DNA of 64,000 bases from Lingula anatina (Eukaryota > Animalia > Brachiopoda): contig CM120649.1 in assembly GCA_051362555.1 (NCBI GenBank), positions 19,296,567 to 19,360,566 of the forward strand, given 5' to 3'. The notes beneath the pieces were generated by a model. The model ran no database searches. It was given only the letters and a program-made list of their open reading frames with translations, and was not told the origin of the DNA. Shown here one piece after another: positions 1 through 63,196 of this stretch; position 1 is the first letter of the stretch; each line of letters starts with the position of its first letter. Both the position numbers and the translations under genes were made by a program.

Positions 1-65
1 CAGCTACAGCAATCAATCAATACGTGATCCCAATAGTAGACTCGGTACCAGTAATATCCCATGAA

Positions 66-12670: not shown

Positions 12671-13038
12671 CTTAATTTTACGCGCAACGCCATTACGAAA
12701 CAACCTGATTGCACATTGTATAGTTTCCGCAAGAGTTCTGTCGAGATTTCGAATTAGAATCTTTGTAACTGCAACAATGCTTCATAGAATGATCATCTTG
12801 CACAGAAAATTGGCAACAGCGGTATGAATACATGTCTATGTAGTTATGTGATTAACAGTTCCATTCACTATTTGGTAAGATTCGTTTCTCTATCGTAGGC
12901 ATAACTGACACTTTATAGTGAAACTGAATACCTGTTATCGCAATATTGTGTTATAATTTAGAGAAGTAAACCACAGCTACAGCAATCAATCAATACGTGA
13001 TCCCAATAGTAGACTCGGTACCAGTAATATCCCATGAA

Positions 13039-13205
13039 CAGGGGCGGATCCAGAAATATTTTCTGACAGTCTTCCAAATTATCTTTGTTGATTCATCCTC
13101 CATTTTCCACAGTCTTCCGACAGAAAAAAATAGATACCCATCAATATTATCTTGAAAATCTGACCGTCTTCCGGAAGACCCAGAAGACGGCCTAAATCCG
13201 CCCCT
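13039..13205. mobile_element. CAGGGG-TIR MITE, array copy
   Basis: Same sequence as 66-233, terminal G missing. Confidence 0.78.
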
Positions 13206-29150: not shown

Positions 29151-30413
29151 TCAAAATAATCAATTTTGTTTATACAAATAGTTACAATTCTGCCATGTAC
29201 GGTATTTATTTTTATTTATTTTATTTATTAATTTATTTATTTATTCTTTTTTTTTTGTATTTGTAGTTTCAAACCGTTGCCTGTTTACTGGACAGTTCAA
29301 AGATGTATTTGATATATAATCAAATATTTTCTAAAGATTTTTTAAGTGAAATACGTCATCAAAGGTTTAAAACCTGTTGTCTCTTTGTGATTCAGTTTTT
29401 GAATTATCATCAACTGTGATGTTTTCATATCAATAATACGCAATGCTGCACTAAGCCTCATTTCTGTTGTTCTTCCAATGGTGCAGTATCATTTACCAGA
29501 CAGAAATTGCAGAAAAAAAACTACCAGTTTTCACCCAGTTTTAAACCAAGATAATATAATAATGCAAAAAATGTGCGTGTTCATTCTCATGGTCAATTCA
29601 CATCAAATTAAATTACTTCCCGGCAAGTATTAACATATTCAGTTTTACCATTTATTTAGGTCAAGCAAGCTTTTGTTGAACCAAATTACTGTCAAGAAAC
29701 AAAGGGTGCGTGTAATAAAAAGTCCACCCTCCGTTAGATCCACACAGAATTTGGTAAGCTCGACGTCATTAAATCAAAATCTAGGACAGGTCCCGCCTGT
29801 ATAAATCAATGGGAACCGAATCCCGTATCACAAGGAGCTCTCTCGTACACGACACCCAACAACTCCCTTTTACGAGGAATATACAATATGTGCTGGTTTT
29901 GTAGGTCTCAGCAGAACGCACTGTTTTGTTTTAAGGGACCCAGAATGGAATCGCTTGTGTCTGTGGAGTACGTGATTGGAGCTTAATTATTAGCAGTCGC
30001 CCCCCCCCCCCCCTCTCCACTCCCCACCACCACCATCTTACACACCATGCACACAAACCCAAAACAACAGGAGCGTTTTGAAAATAAGACTTAAGTCCAA
30101 TAGTGCCACCTTCAGTGTTAAATCACACTATAATTATAAACATATAAAATGTCGAAAAAATACATTACCAATAGTGTTTTTTAATTTAATCACAATTGAA
30201 CATAAAAACACTGGCGATTGAAAGAGCATTGAATCTATATCCAAAAAAAAAGGCGAAAATCTCTCAGATAAAGAGAGTTGTTCTGTTTAAAATCGTGAGT
30301 GTCTACTTTTTAACCGCAGACATGATGAATAGGAAAACTATAAATAGTTTTTGCTTTCTGTCAAAGTTTACAACAGTCATGACAACGCGTGGATTTTATG
30401 TTCGGATCGATTT

Positions 30414-33400
30414 CTAATTCTCATTTAGACGCAATAAACGAATGAGTTCGTTCCTCAAAATATTCTCTTCCATAGACTTTTCTAATTTTCTTTTGAAATC
30501 GTCTCGTCTTGGTCCCATCCCGTTGCCAGCGCCCTCTTTTGCCGTTTCATCTCTACTCGGAATCTCGGGCTGTTTCACTGCAGCTGCAATACCGAAGTCG
30601 TTCGTTCATTGAAATCATAAAAATTATTTTTAATAATTAAGATTATAAGATCAAATATTAAAAAAAGGTAATTGTGAAAAAAACATGATAATATAAATCA
30701 TAGGTCAAATAACTATCAGTTCTATGCTAATAATTTTGTTCACTAGACGAGCTGTGTCAATTTTGCATACTGAGTTATATTTGTGGGTTTACCTTCGCGT
30801 ATGGGGCCAAGAATTTGGTCTACTGCTGACGTCATGACCTGCAAGTCTCGTTTAAGTCTCGTGGCGTGCAACACGGCCAATGACACGTGCTTTACCAGAA
30901 CAAAATCCATCACAGCATCACCTGTCAGAAAATATCATTGTTGATAAGCTGCTGTTTCAAATAATTTGATTCTATCTAATTAGCATTACTGATTCCATTC
31001 AATTTATTTCAAGACAACTGTGGTGTCTGATATACCAATATAGTACGGCAACTATCAAGATATCATCATTCTTTAGATTATTTTGTGCAAGAATAAAATA
31101 GTGAAGAAAACTTAAGCTTCATTCTTTATTTACTGCGAATATTCATATGTCAACTGAGCGAAGCCAATACCTATATTCTCAGCAGTAATATCCACGATCT
31201 TCTTCAACTGTTCCTGTCGTGTCTGGAGACACGTCACATCACTCAGCAGTTTGGTTACCAGTGACTGAGCGTTAAACTGATCCTGGTGGAAACAGATTTC
31301 ATAGTGAGAAAGATAAAAGAAGTAGTATTGAAGCTTGATAAGAATGGCATGAAGAGGTTAAACTGAGCTTGATGTAAAGAAGAATGTCAACAAGGGGTGT
31401 ACGTTGATCAGGGGCGGATCCAGAGATATTTTCTGAGTCTTCCAAATTATCTTTTTTGATCCAACCTCCATTTTTGACCGTCTTCCGACAGAAAAAAATA
31501 GACATCCGTCAATGTAAACTTGAAAATGTGACCGTCTTCCGGAAGAATCAGAAGACGGCCTAAATCCGCCCCTGTTGATTGTGCTCTTTACATAAATACT
31601 GCACGTGATGACCGCAGTAAAATCATCTTGCAATTGTACTTTGTTTTGAAAATATCTGATGAAATGGCATGCGCCTATTATTTTACTTTACTTACTCCTT
31701 CGTCTTCAGTAATAATATTCACGTATGAGGAAAAACTTATGCATTCACTTGGTTTCTTCTTAAACCCTAAAGAAGGACAAAATGTCAAATTTTTAAATGT
31801 ATATTTACGTCATTGGTGTCATCATTGACCTACAAATGTAGCCACAGTAAAGAGCCTGATACACGGGACAATGATTATACAAACATGCCACCTAACCTTT
31901 TCTAAATATCATTGCTTTGAATTTGTACAAGATATAAAATTATGCGTATTCGTCTATAACCTGACGATATCACTTTTGTTATGGTTTATATAAATTAAGT
32001 TCTTTTTGATTACTGCCGTATATAAACATTTCTACTGGATCAAATGACAATACATATGTCCGTACCTTTCTCAATGATTCGGTCCAATGTTTGACACACC
32101 TGTCCCAATAGTGACACTAACCAGTAACCGGTATATCTGAAGTCGCCTTCAAACTCATAGATGTGGTCTTGCAGTTCTCCATCTACAAAGTGGGTAAATA
32201 CGAAAATCTTTCCAGAGAGATTTACCTTACAAATGTGACGCACAATTTTGCTTTTTGTCGGCTCTTGCTCATTTTATTTTTCAATTAACAATAAAATGAA
32301 ATTGCTCTTTACCATTGAGAGTGGGAGAGTTGTGATTTCTCGGCGCCAGCTGCTCACGATTAATTCACACTTACAAAATTTCAAATTAAACGATACACTT
32401 GAACATCCGATAATCCACTGAACTATTTTTTTCAACCTTTACTTGAATATCTTTGAACTAAAGCACTAAAGAAATAATTCAATAATCACAAGAAGCGTCT
32501 TCGGCCAGTTTTCCTGCTGCGCATTTTCTTGCGGCTACGGAATCTTTCAGATTAAAGGCCTGACGCTTTAGATCTGCCATCATCGTAGCCATAGCAGGAC
32601 TTCTGAGGGCTGGAATAGAATGGTTCAATAAAATTAATTTAAAGTAGGGTATAACTTTGTGTGAAAATAGTTTAATTGTCTTAAGTATTTAAAAAACTAC
32701 CTTTGATAATTTTTTCTAGGAGTTGAAATGTAAAATAATGTATTCGATGCAACTGAACCTATGGAAAATAAATTGCAAACATCTTCAAAAGATGTCATTA
32801 TAAAGTATAAAAGAGTTTACAAAGACGTTATCTAAGGGGCATATGACGTCATATTGTCACCATGACGTCAAATGACGCTTTCATTGCATCACGTGGCTGC
32901 TGGGAATTCTTGATGTGCCTCGATGCTATTATGCTATTGGTAATCGTTAATCTTCAATTATAATTTTATTTTTCTAAATAAAACTTACGTTCATTGTTTA
33001 CGTTACTGTTTCTTTTACGGATAACTTTACGTCGTGTGGTAGAACTAACGGGCATTTCTCCACTTTCTTTTCTCAACGGCTGTGTGGACTTCGGCCTTGT
33101 CCTGGACTGGCGCTACAAAAGTGAATGAATAAGAACATTTTTTATATAAGGGACTGACCTGAATAATCAAGGCAAACCAAACAGTCTTTTTTGTTTACCT
33201 TAAAATAATTCCCTGTTCAATGTACACTTAGCAAAGCTTATCTCAGTGAAAAAATGATTTTGAAACTCACGAGACTCGCTAGCAGTTCACGCGTGGTATC
33301 ATCCGACGAATCTGAAGACTGGATCTCGCTTTCTCCTGTAAAATAATAAAGAAAGAAAGAAAAGAAAAAAAAACAAGTATTTCATCACATGTATTTGAAG

Positions 33401-35667
33401 ATTCGAGAAAACCTGATATTTTGTAAAAAGGTTTTGCTTGATGAAACCAGGAAATTCTCAGATTTTGTAAAATGCATTGCTTGATGATAACAATAAATAT
33501 TAAGCTTTTGACATTTAATAAACCTCGTTGATCTACTTACGTTGACGTAGTTGACGTGCCAAGTTGTATACTGCTCTGGTGATGTTTTGTTCGACCCAAA
33601 ATATTCTACAAACGTCCATCACGATAATAGCAACGTTCTGTACTAAATCTTCATCTGCTAGATCTTCAAAAGACGAATTTGTTAAAGAATAAAGGGACAA
33701 TATCTGATGAAACAAAGCCGCTGCTGTTTTACCGCTGTTTAAGTGACATTTGAATAGATAAGACGTGGAGTAATATGAAATGGTTGCTGTCATCATTTCA
33801 GCAATGCTTTTTTATTGAGTGAAAGACATCCTACTTTGCTCTCTAACTGCAGTTTATTAACTGGGTATTTACAAATTCCTTCAGAGCAGAGACCTCATTC
33901 AAAACAAAAATAATTAAAAATGCTGAAAAGTGTTCAACGTTTATCCGGTCATGGTCTACCAGTCATGTACCAGTAGGATAGAGGAAATATGTGCTCATAT
34001 TTTCGGGGACATGCTTCCTGAAAACTGGTTATTAAATGGCCGATTTATCGATGCTCACCTACGGTGCTTGTTGTATTGAAGACTGCGTTCTTAAACAAAG
34101 TCACTTTCCCGTGCATACAGGAAAGATCGGCCAGTAGAGACGCTGATAAACCCCGGGCAACGTCGCCACTCTGAAACAAGAGACAGTGACAAGTGACGCT
34201 ACTGAAAATACGGACTCAGATTGGTTTGATATCCTTTTGTAAAGAAAATGGTAAAAATGCCAGATCCAGGTGTGATTCATTATCAAGATTTGTCACGCAA
34301 ACTCTAATAACCTGATCAATCTGTGCAACTGATCTCTTTAGGGAACGCACAACATTTTCATTTTTATCAATATCATAAATTTCATTCAGTGATAAAACAT
34401 AAAATTATGTCATACTTTTTCTGCTAATGCTTCGCCTGTAGCCGTTGGACAAGGGCATGGACTGAGACTGACAAAGATTTGAGTGTTGTAATTTCAGAAT
34501 TTTTATGAGTGGACACTAATATGATACAAAGTTTAAAGCACTTAAATAATTACAATATATTTTCAGCAGTTGACCCTTGTTTTTCTATGTTACGTACCTG
34601 TAGTTGTTAGATATGAGTGCTGGATGATATAGATGATCAGCTGAATTTTCCTGTTGATATTCATTTAAATTACATCTTGCACGACACAATACTTACATCG
34701 TCTGCTTCGAGGTCATAATTTTTGACAGCTTGGTCAAATTGTGAACAACGTCTCCAGCCCGACCCGACTCCTTGAAAGAGAATTTAGTGTTCATTTCACT
34801 TCTAATGAATCAGTCTGTTTCGGATCCACCAATTTTTACATTTTGTATACAGCATAGCAACGTTTTCCTATGTCATTTTACATTTGTGTTACCTAAAACC
34901 TTTTTATTCAGCTCGTTCATACTATTTACATCGTTTGCAGAAATATTCTATCCTCACTTAAACATAAATATGTGTTTCCATTAGACGCTGAAACGCTGAA
35001 TGAAACAGTGGGGGGTGGGGGGGTGGCAGTTATTTCATTTTTGAATACATTTTTCGAAATGTTTCTTAAACCATTCAGAATTTAATTTGAAAAAAAAATA
35101 ATACTCTTAAAAGACGTTTTACAGACATAGCCTTTACATCGGGTCTTCAACATATTAACCAACCTCCATCCGGGATTCTGCGCTCCTTATGAATACATTA
35201 TGTTAATTAGGTTTAATTAAGTGCACGGGGGGGGGGGTAATTGGCGAGAGGACAATTTAAGACTTTAACTGATATCTATCTCGCGATAGCTCAGTTGGTA
35301 GAGCGGAGGACTGTAGTGGATATTTAGGGGCATCCTTAGGTCGCTGGTTCAAATCCGGCTCGCGAGACACTTTTGCCTAGCAAACTGATGGATCGTTACT
35401 GAACTCATCGCAGTCTTAGTATATAATATTGCTTCTGTCAAATCCATCTCATTCTATCTCTCCACCCTCTCTATCTCTTAATCTGTTTTCACTTTTGAAC
35501 TCTAAATTTTCACTCCATCTATCTTTCACTCTCTCTCTCCCTCCCTCTCTCTCTCTCTCGCACACATACACACACACACACACAGAGAGAGAAAGAGAGA
35601 AACGCAAACGTACACACGTGTGAAAACTTGCAATTATGTTCACCCAAATAAAATAGAACATGTCTGA

Positions 35668-35723
<56 letters not shown>

Positions 35724-36877
35724 CCGGCCCATATCAACTTGCTCAAGAGGGTCCACAGGTCCAACGTCATGAAATCAGCGACATCTTTTACCTGTTGAAG
35801 ATCATCGTTCAGTTTGACGAAATGTTCACCAAGAAGACGTGCTAGAAATAGAAATAAATTTGATGTGACTGAAATGAATACCTAATTATAAAAGTTTAAA
35901 CAAGCTATTCCTTTCTGCGCTTATTTATCTATCAATTTACTTATCATTCGCCCATGTATCTATTTATGTTATTGTTCATTGTTTTGTCTATAGTGATGGT
36001 TTTATCTATGGGCAGAGAAAAAGGCTCCGTCATGCAGTGAAACCTTTGACAAAATGCAGCCGATGATCACATCTTTTTGCCACCTCAAGGTCATTCGCTT
36101 TATCAAAAGCACACAGCATGTCCATGGTCTTGTGCTAGTCCAGAGTTATAAGAACTCGCTAAGGAAGAAGGGGTAAAATTTTGTTCTAAAAACGGGTGCT
36201 TTTTTTGGTCATGTTTGTAGAATGTATGTAGCAGGCCTGTGGCGGGGGTGTGGGGGGGGGGGGTTAAATGATATATATATAACTACCAGGAAATCTTGTA
36301 CAAGTATTTACCAGCAGTGTCCTGAGCCAGCACCTCGCTCTCTCTTCTTAACGTGGCGAAAGAGGCGTTCACAGTGGCCAGTCTGCTACCTAGCGTCCTT
36401 ATAACTGTGTTAATATAATCCGTGGACAAGGCTGTAAAGTGAAAATGGCGAAAAAAGTTAGTATATAGTAATAGATAAACTACGTCTTCATTTTTCACCA
36501 TAATTTTTGGTCATTGTCATTCAATTTGATTATTCTTGAAACATAATTCTACTGTCACTTGTGTCTGAGAAGCACGCGTACCTGCTTTCTTTCACGTGCG
36601 ACCGTGCAGATTTATGCGTGTGCGCGCTCTTTAAGTTGCCTTGTGCGTAGTTCTGCATTCCGCGTATATACTGTACGTGTATCTTGTATATTTTATGCAT
36701 TATCTTTTTCAATTAAAACCGTCACTCCCACAATTTAGTTAAAATATTGTACTTACGGTCAAGTAGTGTTCGTTTTTCAACTCTGTTCTCATCTCTTGCA
36801 TACTTCAGAATATTGGCCAGTAGGCTGCCGGGCTGGTAGTCTGTCCCTACACCATTAGATGGCGTGCTGTCTCCACT
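30414..36877 (-). CDS. Uncharacterised two-module protein (gene 2, >520 aa, first exon not resolved); exons 36877-36757, 36431-36312, 35841-35725, 34770-34697, 34170-34059, ~33663-33541, 33335-33271, 33112-32989, 32609-32490, 32182-32066, 31766-31696, 31282-31171, 30921-30793, 30583-30414
   Basis: 14 exons with GT-AG ends and compatible phases give one stop-free frame; exon sizes and key residues repeat internally and match the neighbouring gene at 40523-50605. Confidence 0.75.
31409..31574. mobile_element. CAGGGG-TIR MITE, independent intronic insertion
   Basis: caggggcggatcc...taaatccgcccctg flanked by TTGAT on both sides. Confidence 0.8.
35280..35367 (+). tRNA. tRNA-Tyr(GTA) with 15-nt intron
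   Basis: ctcgcga/tcgcgag acceptor stem, TAGCTCAGTTGGTAGAGC, anticodon loop ctGTAg, intron tggatatttaggggc, GGTTCAAATCC, downstream TTTT. Confidence 0.95.
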
Positions 36878-36933
36878 CTGGAGAAAAAAAATACAGTAAA
36901 ACGCGTCTACAGTGCCTTCTACCACAAGTCATA

Positions 36934-37149
36934 GGCTCCATTCCCATAGATTTTAGATCGATCTATCCCCGCGGGGAGTCTCACTAGATTACTTTCAGAT
37001 AATCCGACTTAAATGTCCGTCCCGCCTACTACAAGCTGTTAGAGGGTAATTAACTTTCGTGTCCGCCCGGCTGACAGCTATTTAGCGTGAACCCCCAGGG
37101 AGTTAGGTCGACCTAAAGTAGGTCGATCTAATCTATGGAAATGGGGTCA
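36934..37149. mobile_element. PIF/Harbinger-like MITE
   Basis: ggctccattcccatagattttagatcg...cgatctaatctatggaaatggggtc, ATA on both sides; near-identical to 43726-43940. Confidence 0.75.
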
Positions 37150-37706
37150 TATATTGGATATTCCACTAGATATTCACAGACGTATCTCAGAAGAATTCTT
37201 AACACTTTGTTAACTGCGAGTTTTTCTTTGGTATTTTAATTTACTTTCCCCACCTTTAATGATTATGTGTTTTTCGCACCATCAAAACCGCAGCTAGAAT
37301 TTGACGACTCTCGCTCAAATCAAATCAAATCAAATCACATAATCATCAAAACTAGTAAATTATTCTTTAGTCGATATGTGCAAATTATAAAACACCATCA
37401 CTCAGTTGCCCTTTAGTGCAGAGTACGTCTATCAAATTTATCACAGATAATGAGGAAATCCCAGGACCAACCGGAGGGGGGGGGGCGGCTCTTAGTCTTG
37501 ATTACTTCATGGATAAATTACTTTTACTTTAATTGATGATAACGAGACTGTAATGAAATGGACTCGCGTGAAGATAACCATCTCGTACCTCTTGGCGTTT
37601 CACGCCGTTTATGACAGTAGTATGTTAATTAGGCTTAATTACATGCACTCTAAATGATTCATGTAATTGTGGCCGTAATGTGGATACACATATAAGGAAT
37701 TTATAT

Positions 37707-37795
37707 CTCGCGATAGCTCAGTTGGTAGAGCGGAGGACTGTAGTGGAAATATATAAGATATCCTTAGGTCGCTGGTTCAAATCCGGCTCGCGAGA
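37707..37795 (+). tRNA. tRNA-Tyr(GTA) with 16-nt intron
   Basis: Mature sequence identical to 35280-35367; intron tggaaatatataagat; TTTTT terminator. Confidence 0.95.
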
Positions 37796-40086
37796 ACTTT
37801 TTCCCTGACGCCTCAAAGAAACCTACACCTTAAATAAAAACTGCCGTTGTTCTGCCAATGATCAATAATGATTTTGAGCGAGTTTTTACTATCTTTTATG
37901 TACTAGTTTTTACTATCTTTTATGTACAATAAAATGGGGAAAAAAGAAAGTATTAAAAAACATACCGTACTCTTTTTTCTATTTCCATGTAATTCATCGT
38001 GAGCGGCTGTCAGTGTCATTAAAACTAAGGATACCGCGAGAAAACTCCCCAATTTGACTCCACCCATGGCTTGCGGGGTGCCCTATAGAGTAAGACAAGG
38101 TGTGTTACAGTGGTCTTATTCTCGTTTTATAATCCTGATCTTGGTCGGCGATCGCTCTTCCACCTTAAGAGTAGGTAGGCGTTCGTAAGCACAGCGCGTG
38201 ACTTGTACGGTTAATGTTTCAGCGAGGATCGACTGCGTATCCTCAAATTTCTGTGAGTGTCATCAGACTTTAAAGAAGATCAGTTTTTTTCTTGGAATAT
38301 CCAAAAATGTCTGAGTATATCGACATAGATATATTTCGCACTTTTTCGTCTTCTTGTTGACGCTTTGCCTGTCCGTTTGTTGGTAGGACTCTGACTTGTC
38401 CTTAGATACAGGGGTTAAGAAAATACTGTAGACACTGCGATACTTTTTAAATAAGGAATAAATTAAATAGTTTAACAACAGATGAAGCGTTCTGTGTATC
38501 TCTGGACGTTACACCCATTTAAAAGTGACTTACACCCCACTGTCCTGGTTGGCCGTTTACGAAGGTCAAAGAGAGGATGTTGTCACTATATTTTTAAACA
38601 GATATTTCTCTAGCTAGAAATTGGGTGCACATTTCGTACTGCCCATCGAAAATATTTGCGCAAACCATCAACAAGCTGACCTCTGGTAGAGGGTTGTCAT
38701 TGACCGCGAGGATGAGCGTCTTCAGGGGTTAAAGAAGGGGGTCAAGAATGCAGGCAAAGGTGGACGTAAAGACATGGGGCAAGGGAGTTACCAGCTAACG
38801 CTGCATTCAAACGAAAAAAGAAAATCTACCTCTCCTGGACAGGGGCACCGGTATTGTACACTATTTTCTCTTCTGCAGCCGTAATCCCAATTGGCCCCAC
38901 ATCCTTCCAGCCTCCCCCCCCCTTATCCCCCACCCCCACCCACTCTAAACACATCTCAGCTTTTGCTCTTCAAATATCCAGGCGACGTGTGCGCGAATTT
39001 TTTGCCCTCTGCTCTTTCCGCTTGATTTGATCCACAGTGTCTACTATATATTTATCCTGCTAATAGCGAACACTATCTCTAAAGTTTACGAAAGAACAGA
39101 ACACCCGCAGGTAAATATCGAAGTTCCTTACATTGCTGTGCAAATATTATGCCTGCTTCTAACGTAAAAGGTGTTTTCGTTCGGTCTTGGATACGCCGGT
39201 GTGTCCTGTTATTTTGGGATATCAAACAGTTTACCGTGAGTAGAAAGTCATTAGTTTTACAAATACTACCCCCCCCCCCCAAAAAAAAAAAAAAAAATGA
39301 AAAGAAAAGAAAAAAAGAAACCCTGACTGTAAATCTGTTCACGGCAATGCAGCATTACGTTTAGGCAGTACTTATCTGTTGGTTAATGAACTAATATAAA
39401 TGCTCAGCTAACTTCACTTTAATGAAGCGGAAGTACAACGAAATAGAACCGTTAACTTTTTAGAAGCAAAATAAATGCCAAAAAGAATTTTAAAAAAGAC
39501 TAATACGGAATTTCGCCTATTTCGTAAGCTTCAAAAACCGCAAATGGCGTCAGAAACTTACGGTGATGTTGGCATGCCGCTCTAAATCATGAACTAGTAG
39601 AACACTTTTAAAACACCATAACAAAAAATTTCGTGACAACTTTTATTTCGTTACAGAAATTCTGGAAAGATGCATGGAATTACAGGCAATTGAACCCTCA
39701 CCTTTCGCGAGAAAATTAATCCCGTGCCCTGAAGTCTCGCGTAGAGGGGCGAGAACTTGCGAGTTTAGGAATCTCTAAAAACATCGAACATGCTATTGGG
39801 GTTCGGCCTGATTGATACAGGCTCCAAATCTTATTTGCACAGGTACTGTTCTGTACTTCTCTATGGTTCCAATGCCACAATGAAAAGATGAAAATGTGTT
39901 TTATTTATGTCCTTTTACATAACTTGAAATATCCTTTTGATAATATAACCTGTATTATGTTTCCGAGTAACCTTACTTAGCAGTGCTAATATATGTAGTA
40001 AAATAGCATACAGTGACATATGATGCTTCTTTCATCGCACTCTCTTTAACATTATATTACTGTACGCACTTAATACATGCATCTAA

Positions 40087-40132
<46 letters not shown>

Positions 40133-40522
40133 TGAGAAAAAGGGAAAAAGTAGACAGAACATGTCATGATGTAATGCACACTTATTCTACTTTATTGCTG
40201 CCAGCATTGTCCTTGAACAGAACGCTTCGTTGTTATGGTCGTCGTGGTGACGGCTTCACTCACGGGGAAGTCAGAGACGGGTGACACACCCAAATTGTGA
40301 AGAAAATGCTTTGAAAACGGCATGTGGATACAAAAATCGGATACGCCGGCATAAAACTTTAAAACTGATAGGAATGTAGTGACATATCTCCATAAAAAAG
40401 TTTATAAAGCTTAATTGTTTTGTGGTTCACAGGTTAAATGATAAATTCATGTGTTGCCTTGTCTACCAACATTTAAAAGACCTCCCCTGGAGTGTTACCA
40501 AATTCCCCGCGTGGCCGGCCGT

Positions 40523-43141
40523 TTACTTCCTGATCCTTTCCTCGAGCATTTTTTCCAGGATGTCTCGAAGCTTCATGGTCAAAGCGTGATCAGAGAAGTC
40601 ACGCTCCACGTATGCCCCGGATGCTCCAGACGCCCCGGATGCTCCAGACGCTCCGGATGCTCCAGACGCCCCGGATGCTCCAGACGCCCCGGATGCTCCA
40701 GACGCCCCGGATGCCCCAGACGCCCCAGATGCTCCAGACGCCCCGGATGCTCCAGATGCCCCGGTTGCTCCAGACGACCCAGATGCTCCAGATGCCCCGG
40801 ATGCTCCAGACGCCCCGGATGCTCCAGGGTTCACGCCATAATATTCTGAAAAAAATAAGGTGGATTGTGATGCACCTTCTCTGTTTAATGAAATTTACCA
40901 GCAGACTGCAACTGATGAAGAAGGTTTTGTTTTACATTTTACGTTATCTGTACGCGCAGATCTGGGGTTAAAGTATACTGGGCGAGCTACTGGTGGTAAA
41001 GGGTTAGAGGTATACTGGGCGAGCTACTGGTGGTAAAGGGTTAGAGGTATACTGGGCGAGCTACTGGTGGTAAAGGGCTAGAGGTATACTGGGTGAGCTA
41101 CTGGTGGTAAAGGGCTAGAGGTATACTGGGCGAGCTACTGGTGGTAAAGGGCTAGAGGTATACTGGGCGAGCTACTGGTGGTAAAGGGCTAGAGGTATAC
41201 TGGGCGAGCTACTGGTGGTAAAGGGTTAGAGGTATACTGGGTGAGCTACTGGTGGTAAAGGGCTAGAGGTATACTGGGCGAGCTACTGGTGGTAAAGGGT
41301 TAGAGGTATACTGGCGAGCTACTGGTGGTAAAGGGTTAGAGGTATACTGGGCAAGCTACTGGTGGTAAAGGGTTAGAGGTATACTGGGTGAGCTACTGGT
41401 GGTAAAGGGTTAGAGGTATACTGGGCGAGCTACTGGTGGTAAAGGGTTAGAGGTATACTGGGCGAGCTACTGGTGGTAAAGGGTTAGAGGTATACTGGGC
41501 GAGCTACTGGTGGTAAAGGGTTAGAGGTATACTGGGCGAGCTACTGGTGGTAAAGGGTTAGAGGTATGCTGGCGAGCTACTGGTGGTAAAGGGTTAGAGG
41601 TATACTGGGCGAGCTACTGGTGGTAAAGGGTTAGAGGTATACTGGGCGAGCTACTGGTGGTAAAGGGTTAGAGGTATACTGGGCGAGCTACTGGTGGTAA
41701 AGGGTTAGAGGTATGCTGGCGAGCTACTGGTGGTAAAGGGTTAGAGGTATACTGGGCGAGCTACTGGTGGTAAAGGGTTAGAGGTATACTGGGTGAGCTA
41801 CTGGTGGTAAAGGGTTAGAGGTATACTGGGGGCATTTCTGGTGGCATATACTCCACGTAACAGACAATTTCAAATATGTCACAAGGTTACGGACTTATAC
41901 AACTGAACATTTTCAGGAACCTCTAGTTCCCGTGAAGCACTTACTCATGTATCCGTTCATATAATTAATCATGGTGGCGGCGTCTCGGGAGATGGCCATC
42001 ATGTCGTATATGGTGTGTGAGATCTGTTCAAAAGCCATGGCACTCTTGCTGTCAGTTATAGTTCCTACAAATATTCAATTAGTAATACACACCAACTGTC
42101 GTATTTATACATGTAAATGTACGTAAATTTTGTGTATTATGAACCAAATCCACATATGAGAAATAATATATTTTTAACCAACACTAATGAATGTAGGTAA
42201 ATTTCGTGTAGCATGAAGCAAATTCACATCGACGAAGTAATATATTAGTAATACATGTACGAGTATTTAAAATTGATCGCTAATAGTATAACTGTACTAT
42301 AAAAGCAGGAAGATTAAAACAACGTACGTATGTCGTACAAGTTTAAAGTAGGACAGTGCATAGTTATTACCATTCAGAGAGACAGCAATTGCCACGTCGT
42401 TTGCCAACGCTTGGATCTTTCCGTGGATGCAGGCCCTATCCTGAGCCAAGGCTGCCGCGACTGCTGATGCTTCGGCTTCCTCCTAAAATGGCACAATTTA
42501 CATACAAGTCTTTCGGACCGTCTAACGTCCATCCACAGGATTCAAACTTAATCTTGATGGAATAATCTGACTTTTGCTGGCCTGTTCATCTTAGACTTGT
42601 TGGTTGCCATCCCTAGATCGGTCTAACAGGATCGGTCCATCTCCACGGGGTCCCTCGCTAAATTTCTTTCAGCCCAAGCGGCTTAGACGTCTGAGACGCC
42701 CACCAAAGCTGCTAAACGATAGTTAATTACCCCGTATCAGCCTCAGCATTCGTGACAGACATATGAACCGCCCAAGTTAATTGCAATTAAGCGAGAATCC
42801 TCTCGGAGATAGTTCGATCCAAAGTTAGTACGATAGTCTGGGAATGGTCTCTTATACTACAACTTGCACAATGTCCCACACTCAAAAACTGTCCTCTTAC
42901 CAGAAGAGTTCAAAGAAAAATTGTAAAACTTACACTAATTCCCAAGGTCGGATTAGCCTTATGTTGCGCTATCATATAGTCAAGGGTGTTCCCAAGGTTT
43001 CTACACGCATCGACGTTGCCTGCCATTCCTAAAATTTACAGTTATCAAAATTGTTCGCAAAAGAAAATAATTTAAAAATAGTTTGAAAATAATTTTATTC
43101 ATTTCTTTATTTAATTTATTAATTTATTTAATTATAGTAAG

Positions 43142-43179
<38 letters not shown>

Positions 43180-44406
43180 AGGGAGGGAAGGAGAGAGATA
43201 GAATATGCTGTGGTAAACAAAAGCATACGCCATGTACATATATTCAGTAGAACAAACTCCCCTTTACCTGTTCTTTCAAAATATACCCACGGGGGTAGCG
43301 GTGGGGTGGGGGTGGGGGGGTTGTCTGCACTCACAGGCCCCAGTGATGAAGAGGGGAGTTTAGACTTGAGGTGGGTAGAGAGAGAGCTACATGTAAGCCC
43401 CGTCGCGTCTCCGCCGCGACGATTAATTTAGTGGCCATTCAGAATAGACGATCTGTGTATCAACTGGTCCAAGGCTCAAATATGGCGGACCCTACATGAA
43501 AGGAAGACCGCTTAATCTTGTAATGGTCTATCCGTCTCCCCACGCGTCTGGTCGAATGGAGTCGAGATTTAATTACTGTGCCCCTGCAGGGACGACGCGT
43601 GGGGAGGCGTGTGAAAGGCGGAGAGACCATTACAGGGTTAAGCGGCATTCCTTTCATGTAGGGTCTGTCATATTTGAACCTTGGGCCAGTTGATATTTAG
43701 ATCTTCTATTCTAAATGGCCCCTTAGGCTCTATTCCCATAGATTTTAGATCGATCTATCCCCGCGGGGAGTCTCACTAGATTACTTTCAGATAATCCCAC
43801 TTAAATGTCCGTCCCGCCTACTACAAGCTGTAAGGAGGTTATTAACTTTCGTGTCCGCCCGGCTGACAGCTATTTAGCGTGAACCTCCAGGGAGTTAGGT
43901 CGATCTAAAGTAGGTCGATCTAATCTATGGAAATGGGGTGTTAGATTCAGATCAGGCTTACCCGCCCATAACATCCGGCTGAATGCGTGCATCAGCGTGT
44001 ACATCATCATCCCGCCATGGGGAGCCATCGCCTCGAAGTCAGCTTTCAATTTCAGCATGTGCCAGACAAGTGCAGTCCCTAGAATAAAAACCCACATGTT
44101 GGCAGCGAGTTTCAACTTGAAAAGGATGACAGCTGTTCCTATGAGAGTCTTAATTCTCAATAAATACATTATAAACTCATAGAAATATAACAAATCCCAT
44201 TTTACCACCTGGAATGCGTTCTTTCCATCAGACCACGTGGACCTTACACATGTCGCTGGCTATACTCAGTACCTCCGTAATAATTACTATAGAGATTTTT
44301 TAAACAAGCTTTTTAGAAAAAACTAAATCTGAATGTAGAAATGGATTCATTTAACAATGGTAAGTATTGGAAATCGCCGTTTACCACAGAGAAATCCGTT
44401 TTTCGG

Positions 44407-44457
<51 letters not shown>

Positions 44458-44685
44458 ATATAAAGTGCAAAATAAACATGGGGTCAGTTACATGATAATG
44501 AAATAACTGTCTCATTTTGTACTCACTGGTTGTGGAACTGGCTACGTCATTCGAGTCCTGCACTATTTGTTCAAAGGCTGCTTTAGTACCATTGAGGAAG
44601 CTTTGAACATCTGCCTTGCCTTTGTTGTATTCACCGGCAGAAAGGGCTGTAAAGAAAAAAATCTAATTACCGGGTCATAGGCTGA

Positions 44686-44765
<80 letters not shown>

Positions 44766-47700
44766 CCCGGTAATTAGATATATATCCTCAGCCTATGGAT
44801 TTTACCGCCAGGGGCTCTCATCAGGACGCTTTTAAAAGAAAAAATTAAGAGACTAATGGTTTGGAAAAAAAGAAAAGACACCTTATGAAGATCCTTCTTT
44901 TTTCAAATACCTAGGGGGATGTAGCCCCCCCCCCCCCCCCCCCACCCCCCAGTCTCTTTTAAGCACTGGTACATGCAAAATCGTAAGCGTTGTACCCTCG
45001 GGTCCCTCAGGAATACAGTACATGTACATCAATGGCCCCCACCCTTGTGTTTCTTCACACATATATTCAAGCACTTTTTAAACACAAGTATTTACTTTAG
45101 TTGAACACTGGTAATTATGCCAGAATACGTATACCACACTGATCTGCGCAGTGCTTTGAAACAACAGTCGCTTACAAAGCAGTTGATTGTGCCGTTGATT
45201 GCCGACCCCATAGTGTGGACAATATAATCACTGGGGGGGCCGTAGCAATAGTCCGAAGGTTCGATAGTCCGAAGGTTCATTGGTCCGAATATTCACTATA
45301 GAACCTTCGGACCAATGAACCCTTGATTAATAAATCGATGAAAATGTTACCACTTTTCGGACCAATGAACCTTCGGACTATCGAGACGCCCCCATCACCC
45401 GTATTGCATGGGTCACATGAGGAAAGGAGCAGATCGAGGACAGATTATCAACGAAATGACACAGCATTGGTTTAAGGTCATGTTATATAGTAACCACTGA
45501 GGTATCAGTTTACAAATATACGGTCCTGTATTTTAAGTTTTGTTCCCTTCAAGATTCCGCCAAGATATCTGTCGTAGAAATCATCCGAGATTCCCTTAAA
45601 CGATCAGAGGCTTTCTGTACTACGTGACGCCACTAGAGGCTAGAAAACATGTGAGAATCGACGTGACTTAAGGCTTAACATTTAAGCGATAAGGGCAAAA
45701 CTTTGTTTAGAAAGTAATAAAAAGCCTCATCCAAAATATGAGTAATTCAAACTGTTGTACAATTAACTGTAATTTGAACAGAAATTTAAAGAAAACAATC
45801 ACACAGTGTTCCTGGATAAATATGGCCTGACTCCACTCTTCTTAAAAACCCGCAAAATCTTGCTTTATTTTACGCTGATCGCGAGAATTTGGGCTTTCTT
45901 GGATGATTCGAATTTGACTATCTACAGATGCTGTTACAGAAATGTATGTCTTACGTAGTAGTTTGGGATAGCCCTTGCTTCCGTCTTCCTTATCGTCATC
46001 ATCATCGTCATCATCATCATCATCATCATCGTGATCATCTTTGGCAGCCTTGCGCAACTGGAACTTCGAGGTTTCTTTGGCTGCCGGCTCAAGAATGGCT
46101 TGCTAGAAAAAGAAAAAAGTGAATGCTAAGTTAAACTCTTGGTTGTCACTGTTACTGTAACTTGCCTGGCTTGTATGCTTAAACGCTAATTAACTAATTC
46201 TATAACATACTGCAACGAAATTATGCTGGCTTCGCGCTTTATTATTTTAAAAGTTATTTGCATAGATCAAATCTTTTATTTTATAATCAATTAATTTCAA
46301 AGTACAAGCTTATCATCGGTTCTTTGTTGTTGTTGCTGTTGATGATAATGATGAGGAAGATGTTTTTGTTGTTTCGAATTATTTTGGTTTGGATATTGAA
46401 TGTCTTAACCCATGAAGTCGGGTAGCTGATCCTCACTACCAATTATAGGGGAAACGTGGCTGAAGAAACAATTTTTTGGGGGGAAAATGTTTGTTAAAGA
46501 GAAAAGAAAAAACGAATATTTTGTTCTTATGTTGAAATACATGTACTGTTATTTGTAGTTACATGAGCAGTGTATGTTCTTTTTAAGATAAATTCACAGG
46601 GTTTTATTCAAAATCAAGAGTGGCCCACCACGGGTCAAATCCCAGCGCAGACTAAGGCTTCGTTCACATGGAATGTGTATTTTCTAAAAATCTATTTTCT
46701 ATTCGCGCTATCTTATGATCACGGTCTGTGCCCTGAATATCCCGCCGCGTAATTACTGGCAGCGCGAGCCAGTTACTTATAGTAACTTATAGTAACTGGC
46801 TCGCGCTGCCAGTAATTACGCCGCGGGATATTCAGGGCACAGACCGTGATCATAAGACATACCGCGAATAGAAAATAGAATTAAGAAAATAGACATTGCA
46901 TGTGAACGAAGCCTAAATTTCTTTGTTACTTTTTATTTTAATGCATACACTCAGAACGAGTTCCTCTGAACTAAATTCCGAAAATTAGAGGAACGGAGGA
47001 ACGTTCGTGAAAACGTTCTACGACAAATTTAGCCACCGCCAGGGTGCAGCACAGGCCAGAAGGAACCAGCGTCTCCTGAAACTCAGTCCCCCAGATAAAA
47101 TATTTGCAAAGAGGCCTTTCAAGTCGACATTTTTAAGAACCTGTCACGCCGGACTTTAGAACGTTAAGAAAACGGATTATTACCCAGTCTCGCTCCTTGC
47201 AAATGTCAGGCTCTGACAATATTTGATAGTCAACTTCAGATTCATACATCATTGTTGACCAACTTTTAAAAACATTGCAGCCCTTTCTTTCGCCGTGAGA
47301 GTAAAGGAACGCTGTTTCTTCAAGTGGTCGCAAGGCCGGGATTAACAGGGGCACAACTCTCCGATCACATAACGTGTACAGGTAGAAAGAAGTGATTGGG
47401 TTGATGAACAGGAGAGGCGATCAACGCCCAGCAGGAGGGCGGCTTTAAGTGGACGCCATTAGTGTCGAGGAGGGGTCAGATAGTGACAAGAACACTTGTT
47501 TTGAAGGTGTGCTATTCATTCTTATTCTTAACTACATAAAGCAATCTTAACTATGGGACATGAGTTGCTCTGTGGGAAACCCAGACTATCCCGGTGTTAG
47601 AAAATGAGGTTCCGTGTAACAGATTTAGATCCAGAGACTCCGTCCTTCATTTGATTCAAACAGGTTATGATTAGCATTACCTCATTGATTCAGAATCTAA

Positions 47701-50605
47701 GACGGGGCTTACCTGCACAAATCAATGAGGACCGGACCCTGTATCACGGGGGTGGGGGTGGGGGTGGGGGGTCCCGTGCATGATAATTGCTGTGATTGAC
47801 AATAAGGTGGGATTGGACCTCAAATCGCTGTACCTTTACACAAGTCTTTGTACACTGAAATCTCCAATCGGCTCTGTCTAAAGCAACATAAACGTTGTAC
47901 ACTAAAGAATTGGGGGACTATGAAGGCGCTGTAGGCAATTTTATAAGTTAATAGTTTTAAGTCCAGAAAACCGGTTTACCAGTCTTATTTTAACCATCTG
48001 CACTCTCGGGTAAAGGGGGGCAAGGCCTGTCTCACGAATTGGCAGCGGATATGGCTCAAACGTAACGTCAACCTGGTAGCGAATTTCCAAGTTTTTCTGA
48101 CTGTAAAATCTAATTCTTACGACTTAAATAAAGATGAATAAAAACAAAGTAATAACAAGGGGGAAAGTTTCTGTTATAGAAATACCTGTATCCCAAGGCA
48201 CCTTTAGAAGAACCATAGGCCTATATGATAATTTTTGAAAACCATTCATATATATGCAAGATGCTTCGGGGAGCTTCTTTTCTTTTTAATTTTTTTTTAA
48301 TCTGATGGGGAGAGGGCGGTTTTCTTCGTCCAAACCGGTTGATGTGTCTTAAGCTCAGTTAAGGTAACTGGGCACGACTTCTAGGCGGTCGTAGAGCACA
48401 AACAAATTGCGCCCCGACAGTGCTGCCCTGGTCACGTGACCGCAAGCTTAAAGGGCGTTGCCCAGGTGTGCAGACAAGTTTTTCAGAACAGTTGAATAAT
48501 ATGTCGCAACTGCTTTTCTCTTATACAAAAGCAAGAAATGCGTATAAAATGCTTCTAACCACTGAAGTCTAAACGTTTCACACAGTTCTGCTATTATAAT
48601 GTACGTTTGTGACAAGGATTACCAAGAAGTTGCGATTGTGTAATCACTCGTGGGTTTTCAACCTTGCAAAATGCGAGCATTCATTACATATTTGACATTG
48701 AAATATGCTGCATTCTTATCAGGCTCTATGAAATCGATCGAAAGAAAACTTGACCAGGGTAACATAATATTTAAAGACATAATAACAGAATACCTTGTGA
48801 TTTCGCAATGCACACGCTGGTAAACGCGATCGCTCCATTGGTCTTATTAACGTTAATCTTAATGCACACGTTACTCAAAGACTAGTTACAATACAGGGAC
48901 ACCAGACAGAGGGCGGGGGTGGAGGGTGTGTGTGTGAAGGAACCCGCTTAACTGGAAAGGGTCCACTTTAAATTCAACTTTGGTCAAGATTTTTGCCATT
49001 CCCGTATCAGCTGACCACTACTACACTACTCCTAGAGACTTAGGCCATTTTGATGCCTTTTACGAATACATTTTTTCTGGTGAAATCTTCACTTTTCTAA
49101 CCGCAAGTGCAGGCGGATAAATGGCATGCTCTGAAAGGGGGACAACAAAGTTTTTACTAGATATTCGGGTTTATTTCTTCACTCGCTAGGAACATTTCTG
49201 TACTGATTTTTACACAACAATTATGCCGTCGCCGTAATATGGTATTTTGCCTTCTGGTCAGGTTGTGGTCTATAGTATGTTTCTATAACATTAGGTGCTT
49301 TTTGCAAAATCCACCGCTGTGCACTCTTTGTGTTTGAGGAAAAAATCCAGACGTACCTCAAGCAATTTTCAATGCTCTTATCGTGAAGCTTAGTCACCAC
49401 GTTTATCTCAATACTTTTTTATCCCTAGAGGGAGATATAGATAGACGCCTTGCCCCAGCTGTAGTCACATCACAGTTAAATCAGACATCTTTTCTTTTAG
49501 AAATGTCCGTCAAAAAGTTCAACTAATTTTGAAAAGGGTTAAAATTTGATTGAAGCTTTAATTCAAGCAAAGACACGTCAGAAGTTTATATTCTTAGCAG
49601 AATCAGGACTTGTACTGTACTAGGAATTATAAAATTACAGTATATATATTTTTTAAATCCCATTAAAGCTAACAAAATTAATGGCAGTCCCGTAACAAAA
49701 TCCCTCTTTTACGATAAACTTGCCTGATTGTATTATAGTTGAGGGGGGGGGGAGGTCAAAACCAATAATTTTGATGCTCAACTTGTTTCAGTTTTGTTCA
49801 GCTTTCATTGCATACAACATGCAATATATATTGAATGCATATACAATAAGATAGTAATTAAATGGAATTCGATTCAATCTTTAAACAAACCTTTAAAATG
49901 AGTATTAAAGAAGGTAAAGAAAATAAGAAAAATGAAAACTCGTGTTCCTCTTTCTTCTAACAATAAAAAATTCATGAATAACCACAGTTCTTTGATACAT
50001 GTAGAAGCAGTATATATATATCTATATCGTTTAGTCCGACATTTCAGTAAAATATAACCGTAGTGATTCCCGAGGTCCTTTTCAATTAATGACGCGGGTA
50101 TTTGTTAAAAGAGGCTTCAATCTGTAATTTAATCTCATTAAACATTTTTATTTTCACAATTAAGAACGCCGAGACTTAGCAAAGTCCATTGCTTCATTGC
50201 TTCATTGTTTTTGAGTTCAGGGTATATAATTGTTCACTCAACGTTAAAGGACACTAGTTCATACAGACATTACACTAAGGATTAAATCCCTTTAAATGGC
50301 CAGTTACACAACACTTTTGTATACATATATTAACAATTGATTAAACTGATTAAAACTTAACAGATTTGTAATAATCCCCTCTGTTCAATCACCAGTTTAT
50401 GTACGATGTAAACAAAGCAATCAGGTGATCGAACATCTAGAAATCAACCTGATAATTGTATCAATTGACGTGAAGGGGTCCTCGTCCCTACTTTATCGTC
50501 ACTCTGCAGATCCCCCAAACTTACCAGCTCCGCCTCGGATATCGTCCTGGCGACCGCGCACGCCACGAAGGCGGCGAGAAGGAAAAGTCGAAGGATTGTC
50601 GACAT
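40523..50605 (-). CDS. Uncharacterised secreted protein (gene 1, ~364 aa) with poly-Asp tract, helical module and (GAS)n tail; exons 50605-50525, 46102-45955, 44646-44527, 44078-43962, 43408-43335, 42482-42371, 42064-41945, 40845-40523
   Basis: ATG plus signal peptide MSTILRLFLLAAFVACAVA; 8 GT-AG exons in compatible phases; TATA box upstream; AATAAA on - strand at ~40191-40196; exon sizes match the paralogous modules in gene 2. Confidence 0.8.
40612..40827 (-). repeat. Coding 9/18-bp repeat encoding (Gly-Ala-Ser)n, ~24 units
   Basis: ggatgctccagacgcccc units with mostly third-position variation in the GAS frame. Confidence 0.9.
40973..41830. repeat. 37-bp G-rich minisatellite, ~23 copies, intronic
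   Basis: gaggtatactgggcgagctactggtggtaaagggtta tandem units, no spacers. Confidence 0.95.
42602..42851. mobile_element. Degenerate palindromic MITE
   Basis: Right arm gagaatcctctcgga..cgatcc..tagtacgatag..gggaatgg resembles 19851-20058. Confidence 0.5.
43431..43722. mobile_element. Harbinger-like MITE with long (~115 bp) TIRs
   Basis: gtggccattcagaatag..ccctacatgaaagga.. / ..tcctttcatgtaggg..ctattctaaatggcccc; TTA on both sides. Confidence 0.8.
43726..43940. mobile_element. Harbinger-like MITE
   Basis: Copy of the 36934-37149 element, TTA target duplication. Confidence 0.8.
45234..45393. mobile_element. Small foldback-type element with 15-bp subterminal repeats
   Basis: (atagtccgaaggttc)n on left, (gaaccttcggac)n inverted on right, GGGG/CCCC ends, ATCAC near both flanks. 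Confidence 0.65.
46656..46913. mobile_element. Near-perfect palindromic Harbinger-like MITE
   Basis: ggcttcgttcacatg...catgtgaacgaagcc with ~120-bp arms, TAA on both sides. Confidence 0.85.
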
Positions 50606-50684: not shown

Positions 50685-50811
50685 AGGTTTTATATGGGCA
50701 CGGGGCGCAGTGCTTTACACTGCAAACAATGGCATGCGGGGACAATATAAAGGTAAACCCCACCGTTCACCTTTGACATGTGAACCAGCTAGTGAACTGT
50801 GGGAATTTTCC
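50685..50811 (-). promoter_or_regulatory. Putative promoter of gene 1: TATA box, DR1-like element, kB-like site
   Basis: TATAAAA on - strand at ~50688-50694, about 85 nt upstream of the ATG; atgtca-a-aggtga (- strand, ~50767-50779); GGGAATTTTCC at 50801-50811. Confidence 0.5.
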
Positions 50812-52505: not shown

Positions 52506-52759
52506 ATGGCGACCTCCAGAGCTGTGCTGCTGTTGTTATTCCTGGGAAGTTGTGTGGGTGTGCGGCTGTTCCACAGAGGGCGGCCTCGGGGCGGCATGGT
52601 GGGGGTGCCAGCAGTGAACTGGGAACATGAACTGCCACCAGATCAGTGGATAGAACAGCAGCTGGATCATTTCAATGACGCAGATACCAGGACGTGGAAA
52701 CAGGTGCTTGCCTAATATCACATTTGTAGCGTGATGAAATTCTACTTTAAATGTAAAGG

Positions 52760-52810
<51 letters not shown>

Positions 52811-58453: not shown

Positions 58454-58569
58454 TCATTTTCTGTGCACCGCCATTACACAAAGCCCGTCGTAGGCGGAGA
58501 TACAATGTGGTAAAAATACACACCGACGGTTCCTCGCTGCGACTTCCATCCCTTCTAGACAGGGGCAGG

Positions 58570-62772: not shown

Positions 62773-63196
62773 CTACTGTGAAGACCCCATCATCAGCTTC
62801 AAATCTTCCTTGGGATGTCGCACGTCGACGGCGGATATCTGGTACTTATCTACCAAGATATCCAGCACAGTGGGCGTGATGAAGGCCGGGAGGACAGGCC
62901 CCAGGCGAATATTCTTCACGCCAAGATGGAGAAGAGAGAGGAGAACAGCGACCGCCTTCTGCTCGAACCAGGACAGGGCGATGGAGAGAGGGAGCGAGTT
63001 GATGTCGGTCTCGAAGGCCCCTGCCAGAGCGTTGGCGACCACCACGGCGCCGTAGCTATCGTTACACTGACCCATGTCCAACAGACGGGGCAGACCTGAA
63101 AGTGATGACCACAACATGTTGGAGTTTATTGGGGAGAAAGGTGTTTATTGTACACTAAGAACAGGTGTGTGTGTGTGTGTGTCAGAGAGAGAGAGA

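What the first reader, a model, noticed from the sequence alone, without database searches (positions are those of the whole stretch)
30414..50605. Hidden family: three copies of an unrecognised ~180-aa helical module with a fixed five-exon pattern
Seen: gene 1 has one module and gene 2 has two. Each is built from exons of 120/117/74(71)/112/~120 nt with splice phases 1-1-1-0-1-1. Each begins PL(S/R), has His at position 7 of the 117-nt exon (RTALVWH, ARLLGEH, YGELQDH), one Cys in the 74-nt exon and D..C at positions 15/18 of the 112-nt exon (DRACIHGK, DLSCMHGK, DVTCLQTR), while overall identity is low. Amphipathic periodicity suggests an all-alpha fold with one disulfide. I do not recognise the family. 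Inference: a fast-evolving lineage-specific secreted family (cytokine/hormone-like, gamete-recognition, toxin or matrix protein).
Basis: partly seen in the sequence, partly recalled or inferred. Interest (0 to 1): 0.85.

Follow-up and report, generated by a model that had tools for sequence, protein, structure and literature searches.

The report
Orphan secreted helix-bundle family in Lingula
Two neighbouring genes of the lamp shell Lingula carry three diverged copies of an otherwise unknown module of about 185 residues, and one gene is spliced into RNA as modelled; the modules are predicted to be helix bundles that are likely cut from secreted precursors and likely act as extracellular signals.

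Summary
Two minus-strand genes of the brachiopod Lingula carry three homologous modules with exons of 120/117/(71-95)/112/(120-129) nt and phases 1-1-1-0-1-1. In exon register they are 16-28% identical (z 5.7-9.9). RNA reads confirm 9 of 10 tested introns of gene 2, in 1 of 4 runs; gene 1 was not tested by RNA. RefSeq holds gene 2 only as two 'uncharacterized' fragments. No relative was found among 1.84 billion proteins (module 3), in Pfam, NCBIfam or the PDB. Low-confidence AlphaFold models give one long helix per exon and only generic bundle matches. Both genes have a signal-like start, a pro-exon, and a helical tail; in gene 2 a Lys-Arg site precedes each module. Best reading (0.4): convertase-processed precursors of ~20 kDa disulfide-pinned helical ligands. 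They fail the interferon intron-phase test and lack ferritin and hemerythrin motifs. 'Fast-evolving' is not supported between alleles (17 synonymous to 6 replacement changes). Gene 2 is absent from a published shell-protein list. No look-alike was found in this scan's earlier notes. A real, undescribed lineage-specific family of unproven function.

The parts
40523..50605 (-). Gene 1, 8 coding exons, 371 aa: signal-like start, acidic pro-region with a poly-Asp run, module 1, 24 Gly-X-Y triplets (mostly Gly-Ala-Ser), amphipathic tail
   Evidence: Open frame with GT..AG introns; Gly-X-Y count; Pfam collagen hit on the last exon, E 7.8e-16; not tested by RNA
50688..50694 (-). TATA-like box upstream of gene 1
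   Evidence: Sequence; function inferred
50525..50605 (-). Gene 1 exon 1, signal-peptide-like
   Evidence: Highest hydropathy window of the protein, 2.85 over 11 residues
45955..46102 (-). Gene 1 pro-exon (148 nt, phase 0 to 1) with poly-Asp and one Arg-Lys site
41945..44646 (-). Module 1: exons 44646-44527, 44078-43962, 43028-42934 (3' end uncertain), 42482-42371, 42064-41945
40523..40845 (-). Gene 1 last exon: Gly-X-Y repeat and C-terminal helix-like tail
30414..38067 (-). Gene 2, 15 coding exons, 558 aa: signal-like start, pro-exon, module 2, two linker exons, module 3, tail
   Evidence: RNA joints; RefSeq fragments LOC106179831 and LOC112041928
38125..38131 (-). TATA-like box upstream of gene 2
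   Evidence: Sequence; function inferred
37966..38067 (-). Gene 2 exon 1, signal-peptide-like
   Evidence: Hydropathy 2.6 over 11 residues; same start in RefSeq P0002
36757..36877 (-). Gene 2 pro-exon (121 nt, phase 0 to 1); Lys-Arg four residues before module 2
33541..36431 (-). Module 2: exons 36431-36312, 35841-35725, 34770-34697, 34170-34059, 33663-33541
32989..33335 (-). Linker exons 33335-33271 (65 nt) and 33112-32989 (124 nt, second pro-exon; Arg-Lys-Arg seven residues before module 3)
   Evidence: the intron joining 33541 to 33335 was not seen in reads
30793..32609 (-). Module 3: exons 32609-32490, 32182-32066, 31766-31696, 31282-31171, 30921-30793
   Evidence: All junctions seen in run X6; whole in RefSeq P0001
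30414..30583 (-). Gene 2 last exon: flexible stretch, basic sites, C-terminal helix
   Evidence: 35 junction reads; helix 232-260 of P0001, the best-predicted part of the model

Best explanation
These two genes likely encode secreted precursor proteins from which a prohormone convertase would release ~20 kDa modules, predicted to be helical bundles pinned by one disulfide, that likely act as extracellular signals (hormone, cytokine or pheromone) in a restricted tissue or state. Shown: gene structure, homology of the three modules, splicing of most of gene 2, expression in 1 of 4 runs, purifying selection. Predicted: one long helix per exon (A, B, D, E) with a short helix in the Cys-bearing exon, and an antiparallel A-B hairpin. 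Inferred: secretion, the disulfide between the two invariant Cys, cleavage at the basic sites, receptor binding, and the origin of gene 2 by duplication of a six-exon unit (pro-exon plus module) into one reading frame.
For: Both proteins start with their most hydrophobic stretch and have no clear membrane-spanning segment later (19-residue hydropathy at most 1.57). In gene 2 a Lys-Arg site lies 4 and 7 residues before each module and another before the tail helix. Invariant Cys pair and N-glycosylation sequons at similar places in modules 1 and 2. Helix-per-exon pattern in two separate models. Transcripts cover the exons in X6 at about 25-fold from 1.14 Gb read, and not at all in X1, X4 and X7. 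Deep paralog divergence with constraint inside the species is usual for ligand families (my knowledge). Gene 2's RefSeq ids are not in a shell-proteome supplement that uses RefSeq ids.
Against: No receptor, homolog or structure supports a signalling role. Basic pairs are common in gene 2 (19 sites, several inside the modules, and the only strict R-x-K-R site lies inside module 3), so the flanking sites are weak evidence. Gene 1 has no dibasic site next to its module and carries poly-Asp and a Gly-X-Y repeat, which suit a matrix protein. The models are poor (pTM 0.30 and 0.32), so the four-helix packing is not shown. Intron phases and the short A-B link differ from known helical cytokines. The tissues of the four runs are not known, so restricted expression cannot be tied to an organ. 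No signal-peptide predictor was available.
Confidence: 0.4

Rival explanations
1. Structural proteins of an extracellular material (shell, chaetae, pedicle cuticle, mucus, egg coat): the helices would form coiled coils between chains, with poly-Asp binding calcium and the Gly-X-Y run forming a collagen-like trimer.
For: Gene 1 has a poly-Asp run and 24 Gly-X-Y triplets. Weak side peaks at slides of 4 and 7 suggest heptad-like periodicity. Best, non-significant PDB sequence hits are coiled coils. Lingula has lineage-specific helical shell proteins (PMC4595640, passages).
Against: Gene 2's ids are absent from the supplement of PMC13425148. Moderate expression in the one positive run. The Gly-X-Y run lacks Pro. 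The known Ala-rich shell proteins have other motifs and 43-57% Ala. Gene 1's RefSeq id is unknown, so it was not checked.
Confidence: 0.2
2. Soluble carriers of a metal, lipid or pigment: the invariant His, Asp and Asp (plus a His in two modules) would form a buried site in a ferritin/Dps-shaped bundle.
For: Only polar non-Cys invariants are His7 and Asp14 of exon B and Asp15 of exon D. The spacing (short A-B link, 24-32-residue link with a short helix, turn-like D/E junction) resembles the Dps pattern (recalled). By my own geometric reasoning these residues meet only if helix D runs parallel to helix B.
Against: No ExxH or HxxxE/H motif in any module. The models matched antiparallel three-helix bundles and hairpins. 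With three sequences, a few invariant columns are expected by chance.
Confidence: 0.15
3. Gamete-recognition proteins of a broadcast spawner, working like abalone lysin or sea-urchin bindin.
For: Secreted-type precursor with helical domain and Gly-rich repeat recalls bindin; lysin is a small acrosomal protein (PMC2120550, abstract start; its helical fold and the bindin features are recalled). Expression in 1 of 4 runs.
Against: Replacement-to-synonymous ratio about 0.1 in the modules; modules are acidic (pI 5.0-5.7), whereas lysin shows tracks of basic residues.
Confidence: 0.12
4. Defence or membrane-active proteins, kept inactive by acidic pro-pieces and using a moderately hydrophobic late helix to enter membranes.
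For: Second most hydrophobic 11-residue windows fall in the last part of each module (1.76-2.21). Acidic pro-region in gene 1.
Against: These stretches stay below membrane-spanning values; modules are acidic; no family or fold match stands out.
Confidence: 0.1

Closest known systems
Class II helical cytokines (interferons, IL-10 family) and class I long-chain helical cytokines
   Same: Size of about 180-200 residues, signal peptide, mostly helical, five-exon coding pattern with helices mapped to exons, few Cys, low sequence conservation among paralogs, tandem copies.
   Different: Interferon and IL-10-type introns are phase 0 (PMC2654155 passages; bioRxiv 10.64898/2026.05.30.728932 passages); here 1-1-1-0-1-1. 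Helices A and B are joined by a 3-residue turn in both models, not a long overhand loop (loop feature recalled). Here there is a pro-exon, a tail and a two-module polyprotein.
Ferritin/Dps-like four-helix bundles
   Same: Two helical hairpins joined by a longer link with a short helix; similar length (pattern recalled).
   Different: No ExxH motif; helices longer (34-42 residues); pro-protein layout; no Pfam match.
Lingula alanine-rich shell matrix proteins with a predicted three-helix bundle (Luo et al. 2015, PMC4595640)
   Same: Same animal, lineage-specific, signal peptide, tandem genes, predicted helical bundle; the designed bundle 4TQL is a generic match for both.
   Different: Those are 43-57% Ala, basic, 103-253 aa, with R(A)4-5 and GYGY motifs; none of this holds for the present modules.
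Abalone sperm lysin/sp18 and sea-urchin bindin
   Same: Secreted lineage-specific proteins of broadcast spawners; small helical domain or processed precursor with Gly-rich repeats (mostly recalled).
   Different: No sequence match; acidic rather than basic; purifying rather than diversifying signal between alleles.

Membership tests
Interferon / IL-10 (class II helical cytokines) | Five coding exons with intron phases 0-0-0-0 | tested here: not met
   Phases 1-1-1-0-1-1 against the rule in passages
Class I and II helical cytokines | Long overhand loop between helices A and B (recalled) | tested here: inconclusive
   Both models show a 3-residue A-B turn, which argues against, but pTM is 0.30-0.32
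Class I and II helical cytokines | Profile or fold match to a cytokine | tested here: inconclusive
   No Pfam hit for the two RefSeq fragments or single exons; fold searches rest on poor models
Class I and II helical cytokines | Binding to a cytokine receptor with JAK-STAT signalling | not testable with these tools
   Needs experiment
Ferritin-like superfamily | Di-iron site with ExxH motifs | tested here: not met
   0 ExxH in 3 of 3 modules
Ferritin-like superfamily | Four-helix bundle with crossover between helices 2 and 3 | tested here: inconclusive
   Sequence spacing allows it; low-confidence models do not show it
Hemerythrin | HxxxE and HxxxH iron ligands in a ~118-residue bundle (recalled) | tested here: not met
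   No HxxxE/H; 2-6 His per module; 182-188 residues
Lingula alanine-rich shell matrix proteins | High Ala content, R(A)4-5 and GYGY motifs, basic pI | tested here: not met
   Definition from supplement passages; sequences and pI
Lingula shell matrix proteome | Peptides detected in shell | tested here: inconclusive
   Gene 2's two ids have 0 occurrences in the supplement of PMC13425148; gene 1's id is unknown; the 2015 list uses other ids
Convertase-processed prohormone-type precursors | Signal peptide plus basic sites flanking the mature domain | tested here: inconclusive
   Met by sequence for gene 2, only partly for gene 1; many other basic pairs; cleavage not shown
CATCHR tethering subunits (exocyst, COG, GARP) | Pfam or sequence match; cytosolic protein without signal peptide | tested here: not met
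   Atlas feature hits at 0.92-0.93 for module 3 are not repeated for module 2 (best 0.76) and have no Pfam or phmmer support; both genes have signal-like starts

The most novel reading that the evidence does not exclude
A family of helical protein hormones or cytokines that arose independently of the vertebrate class I/II cytokines and is invisible to sequence search, with two different ligands released from one polyprotein and possibly a His-Asp-Asp metal site in a Dps-shaped bundle. It would be a first protein ligand of this type in a brachiopod, and its exon-size and phase signature would give a way to find hidden relatives across spiralians.
Probability: 0.25. Interest if true: 0.75.

Novelty: new variant of a known kind. 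Interest (0 to 1): 0.45.

Why it matters
Helical protein ligands are hard to find outside vertebrates because their sequences diverge beyond recognition; gene structure is one of the few handles, and it works here (the M1-M3 pair is invisible to alignment but clear in exon register). The family is undescribed in the searches made, RefSeq breaks gene 2 in two, and no record of gene 1 was found. If the modules are ligands they open brachiopod endocrine or immune signalling to test. If they are matrix or carrier proteins they are one more orphan family of Lingula, which is less surprising.

Tried and rejected
No whole genome was held, so other copies in the genome could not be counted; inside the window there is no fourth copy (best other scores under 10 against 67-85 for the three copies). 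Word-based protein searches: one exon of module 2 found none of 25 candidates; the three 117-nt exons found 1 of 163, P0001; module 2 found none of 397. phmmer with P0001 over 1,835,955,588 representatives found only itself; modules 1 and 2 were not run in that search, so their distant relatives are less well excluded. Pfam: best E 0.13 for P0001, none for P0002 or five module-1 exons, one weak TadE hit at 0.035 on a module-2 exon. NCBIfam none. PDB sequences: best E 0.64 and 0.14. Metagenome contigs: 0 of 504 pattern matches confirmed. The whole spliced proteins of genes 1 and 2 were not scanned or folded; module 1 was tested only exon by exon, which is weak. Foldseek: no match at E 0.001. 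VIA-align: best Z 11.7 (rmsd 4.7, 173 aligned) and 10.8 (rmsd 1.4, 81 aligned), below the tool's bar of about 13 for helical bundles; no cytokine, ferritin or hemerythrin among the 50 rows shown in either list. Atlas hits to tethering-complex subunits rejected as generic. Similarity of the two C-terminal tails is not significant (122 of 1,500 shuffles reached it). The dimer prediction never ran because the queue was full; nothing is known on oligomers. Run search: no RNA holder listed; the nine runs came by species label. Literature: 0 papers hold any of the six accession ids; listings showed nothing on this family. The large expression tables of PMC13121700 could not be read and may bear on tissue or stage. 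Earlier scan notes: nothing alike.

Full report
What is there. The window is DNA of the brachiopod Lingula: the only database protein matching the modules is a Lingula anatina RefSeq model, and unchecked notes on the same genome name the same animal. Between an ankyrin-death-domain gene and a peptidase-like gene lie two minus-strand genes. Gene 1 (50605-40523, 8 exons, 371 aa) reads signal-like start, acidic pro-region, module 1, 24 Gly-X-Y triplets, helical tail. Gene 2 (38067-30414, 15 exons, 558 aa) reads signal-like start, pro-exon, module 2, two linker exons, module 3, tail. Each has a TATA-like box 58-83 nt above the ATG.

The observation. Exon sizes are 120/117/95/112/120, 120/117/74/112/123 and 120/117/71/112/129, with phases 1-1-1-0-1-1 throughout. 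In exon register and without gaps the three pairs share 32, 18 and 23 of 116 residues (z 9.9, 5.7, 7.2; 0 of 20,000 shuffles each). The third exon of gene 1 is better modelled at 95 nt; this is untested. The exon before each module is phase 0 to 1 and 121, 124 or 148 nt, the last holding a poly-Asp run, so the duplicated unit is likely pro-exon plus module (inference). No fourth copy lies in the window.

Transcripts. Reads of four runs were laid on 30150-35200 (about 6% of X1, X4 and X6 and 25% of X7 were read). X6 covers the exons, first mates all on the plus strand over the exon bins, as expected for a minus-strand RNA in a usual stranded library. It shows 9 of the 10 introns as joints (4 to 35 reads each at the modelled sites), and 12 reads run on into the next exon upstream. 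At the 112-nt exon of module 2, 12 reads use a site 6 nt upstream against 4 at the modelled site; this keeps the frame and is likely allelic. The intron 33541/33335, which joins module 2 to the linker, was not listed; it lies beside a repeat at which reads seemed cut. That gene 2 is one transcript therefore rests on the open frame, similar depth on both sides, and splicing of the first linker exon to the second, upstream of RefSeq's internal start. The two non-overlapping RefSeq fragments also share one 90% cluster of three members, of which two were read, which hints at a bridging record. X1, X4 and X7 show only an intronic dispersed repeat. Mean exon depth in X6 is about 25 from 1.14 Gb.

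Evolution. The modules share only 38-40% DNA identity in register. Of the 60 differences found between X6 and the window, 40 were shown and the 32 exonic ones were used: 17 synonymous and 6 replacement in the modules (193 and 665 sites; ratio about 0.1, my arithmetic), and 5 and 4 in linker and tail. The family looks old and constrained, not rapidly diversifying, at least at this depth.

Relatives. phmmer with P0001 over 1.84 billion representatives returned only itself. Word-based searches with exons and with module 2 gave only P0001 or nothing. Pfam, NCBIfam, PDB sequences and metagenome contigs gave nothing significant. The Atlas placed module 3 near tethering-complex subunits at 0.93 but module 2 at 0.76 or below; I read this as generic long-helix character. 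Module 1 was searched only exon by exon, so its relatives are the least well excluded.

Structure. Two AlphaFold2 models on shallow, partly misaligned alignments have pTM 0.30 and 0.32. They agree on a 34-residue helix for exon A, a 3-residue turn, a 42-residue helix for exon B, a short helix in the Cys exon, and a long helix from exon D, which the module-3 model continues through exon E. The D/E junction has Gly, Asn or Asp residues in all three modules and a glycosylation sequon in two, so I infer a turn there and a four-helix bundle. Fold searches gave only generic bundles and hairpins. By hand geometry the invariant Cys pair can form a bond whether helix D runs parallel or antiparallel to B, but the invariant His and two Asp meet only in the parallel, Dps-like arrangement. 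This is a lead, not a result.

How it likely works. Signal-like starts, pro-exons, Lys-Arg sites 4 and 7 residues before the modules of gene 2, a Cys pair, sequons and on/off expression fit a precursor that is secreted and cut to release ~20 kDa helical ligands (0.4). Against: basic pairs are frequent in gene 2, gene 1 lacks a flanking dibasic site and has matrix-like repeats, and no receptor is known. Rivals are matrix protein (0.2), metal or lipid carrier (0.15), gamete recognition (0.12) and defence (0.1). Gene 2's two RefSeq ids have no occurrence in the supplement of a shell-proteome paper that lists RefSeq ids (PMC13425148: abstract, section 8, supplement search and part 1 seen). The novel shell proteins of PMC4595640 differ in length, composition and motifs (passages and supplement passages).

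Comparison and novelty. It may work like a helical cytokine or protein hormone, but it is not a member of the interferon/IL-10 class by intron phase (passages of PMC2654155 and bioRxiv 10.64898/2026.05.30.728932), and it lacks ferritin and hemerythrin ligand motifs. No paper in the library holds the six accession ids, and five topic searches, seen as listings only, showed nothing on it. The large tables of PMC13121700 could not be read. Verdict: a real, undescribed, so far Lingula-restricted family of secreted-type helical-module precursors; function unproven; interest 0.45.

Noticed in passing
window 1-15800 (+): Tandem array of sulfotransferase ORFs: four of 411-439 aa and fragments, in blocks 91-99.6% identical; Pfam Sulfotransfer_1/3 on the one tested. 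Recent expansion or partly uncollapsed assembly.
   Followed up: partly
window 62773-63144 (-) and exon-like pieces up to 64000: Hybrid-cluster (prismane) protein gene, Pfam E 4.6e-36, apparently with introns: a mainly microbial enzyme family (recalled) in an animal genome.
   Followed up: partly
window 27000-29150 (+): Ankyrin-repeat protein with a C-terminal death domain, tail to tail with gene 2.
   Followed up: partly
window 58552-59715 (+): Single-exon MSL2 (RING and CXC domains).
   Followed up: partly
window about 52460-57340 (+): Multi-exon gene that looks like an S28 serine peptidase (PRSS16/PRCP type), divergent from gene 1; judged by eye, name recalled, not tested.
   Followed up: no
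window, introns 1 and 4 of gene 2 (between 37960-36880 and 35720-34780), + strand: Two intron-containing tRNA-Tyr genes nested antisense in gene 2.
   Followed up: partly
window 36932-37155 and 43724-43947: The same 224-bp element (95% identical) sits in an intron of each gene; likely a mobile repeat rather than a trace of the duplication.
   Followed up: no
window 40965-41830: 37-bp minisatellite, 23.5 copies, filling most of the last intron of gene 1.
   Followed up: no
window 31405-31576: Dispersed repeat of about 170 bp in an intron of gene 2, with copies in the sulfotransferase array; it draws reads in all four runs.
   Followed up: partly
window 46655-46914 and 43430-43723: Long inverted repeats in introns of gene 1, MITE-like.
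   Followed up: no
window 5012-5962 (-): ORF of 316 aa resembling the end of a LINE retrotransposon reverse transcriptase; by eye, not tested.
   Followed up: no
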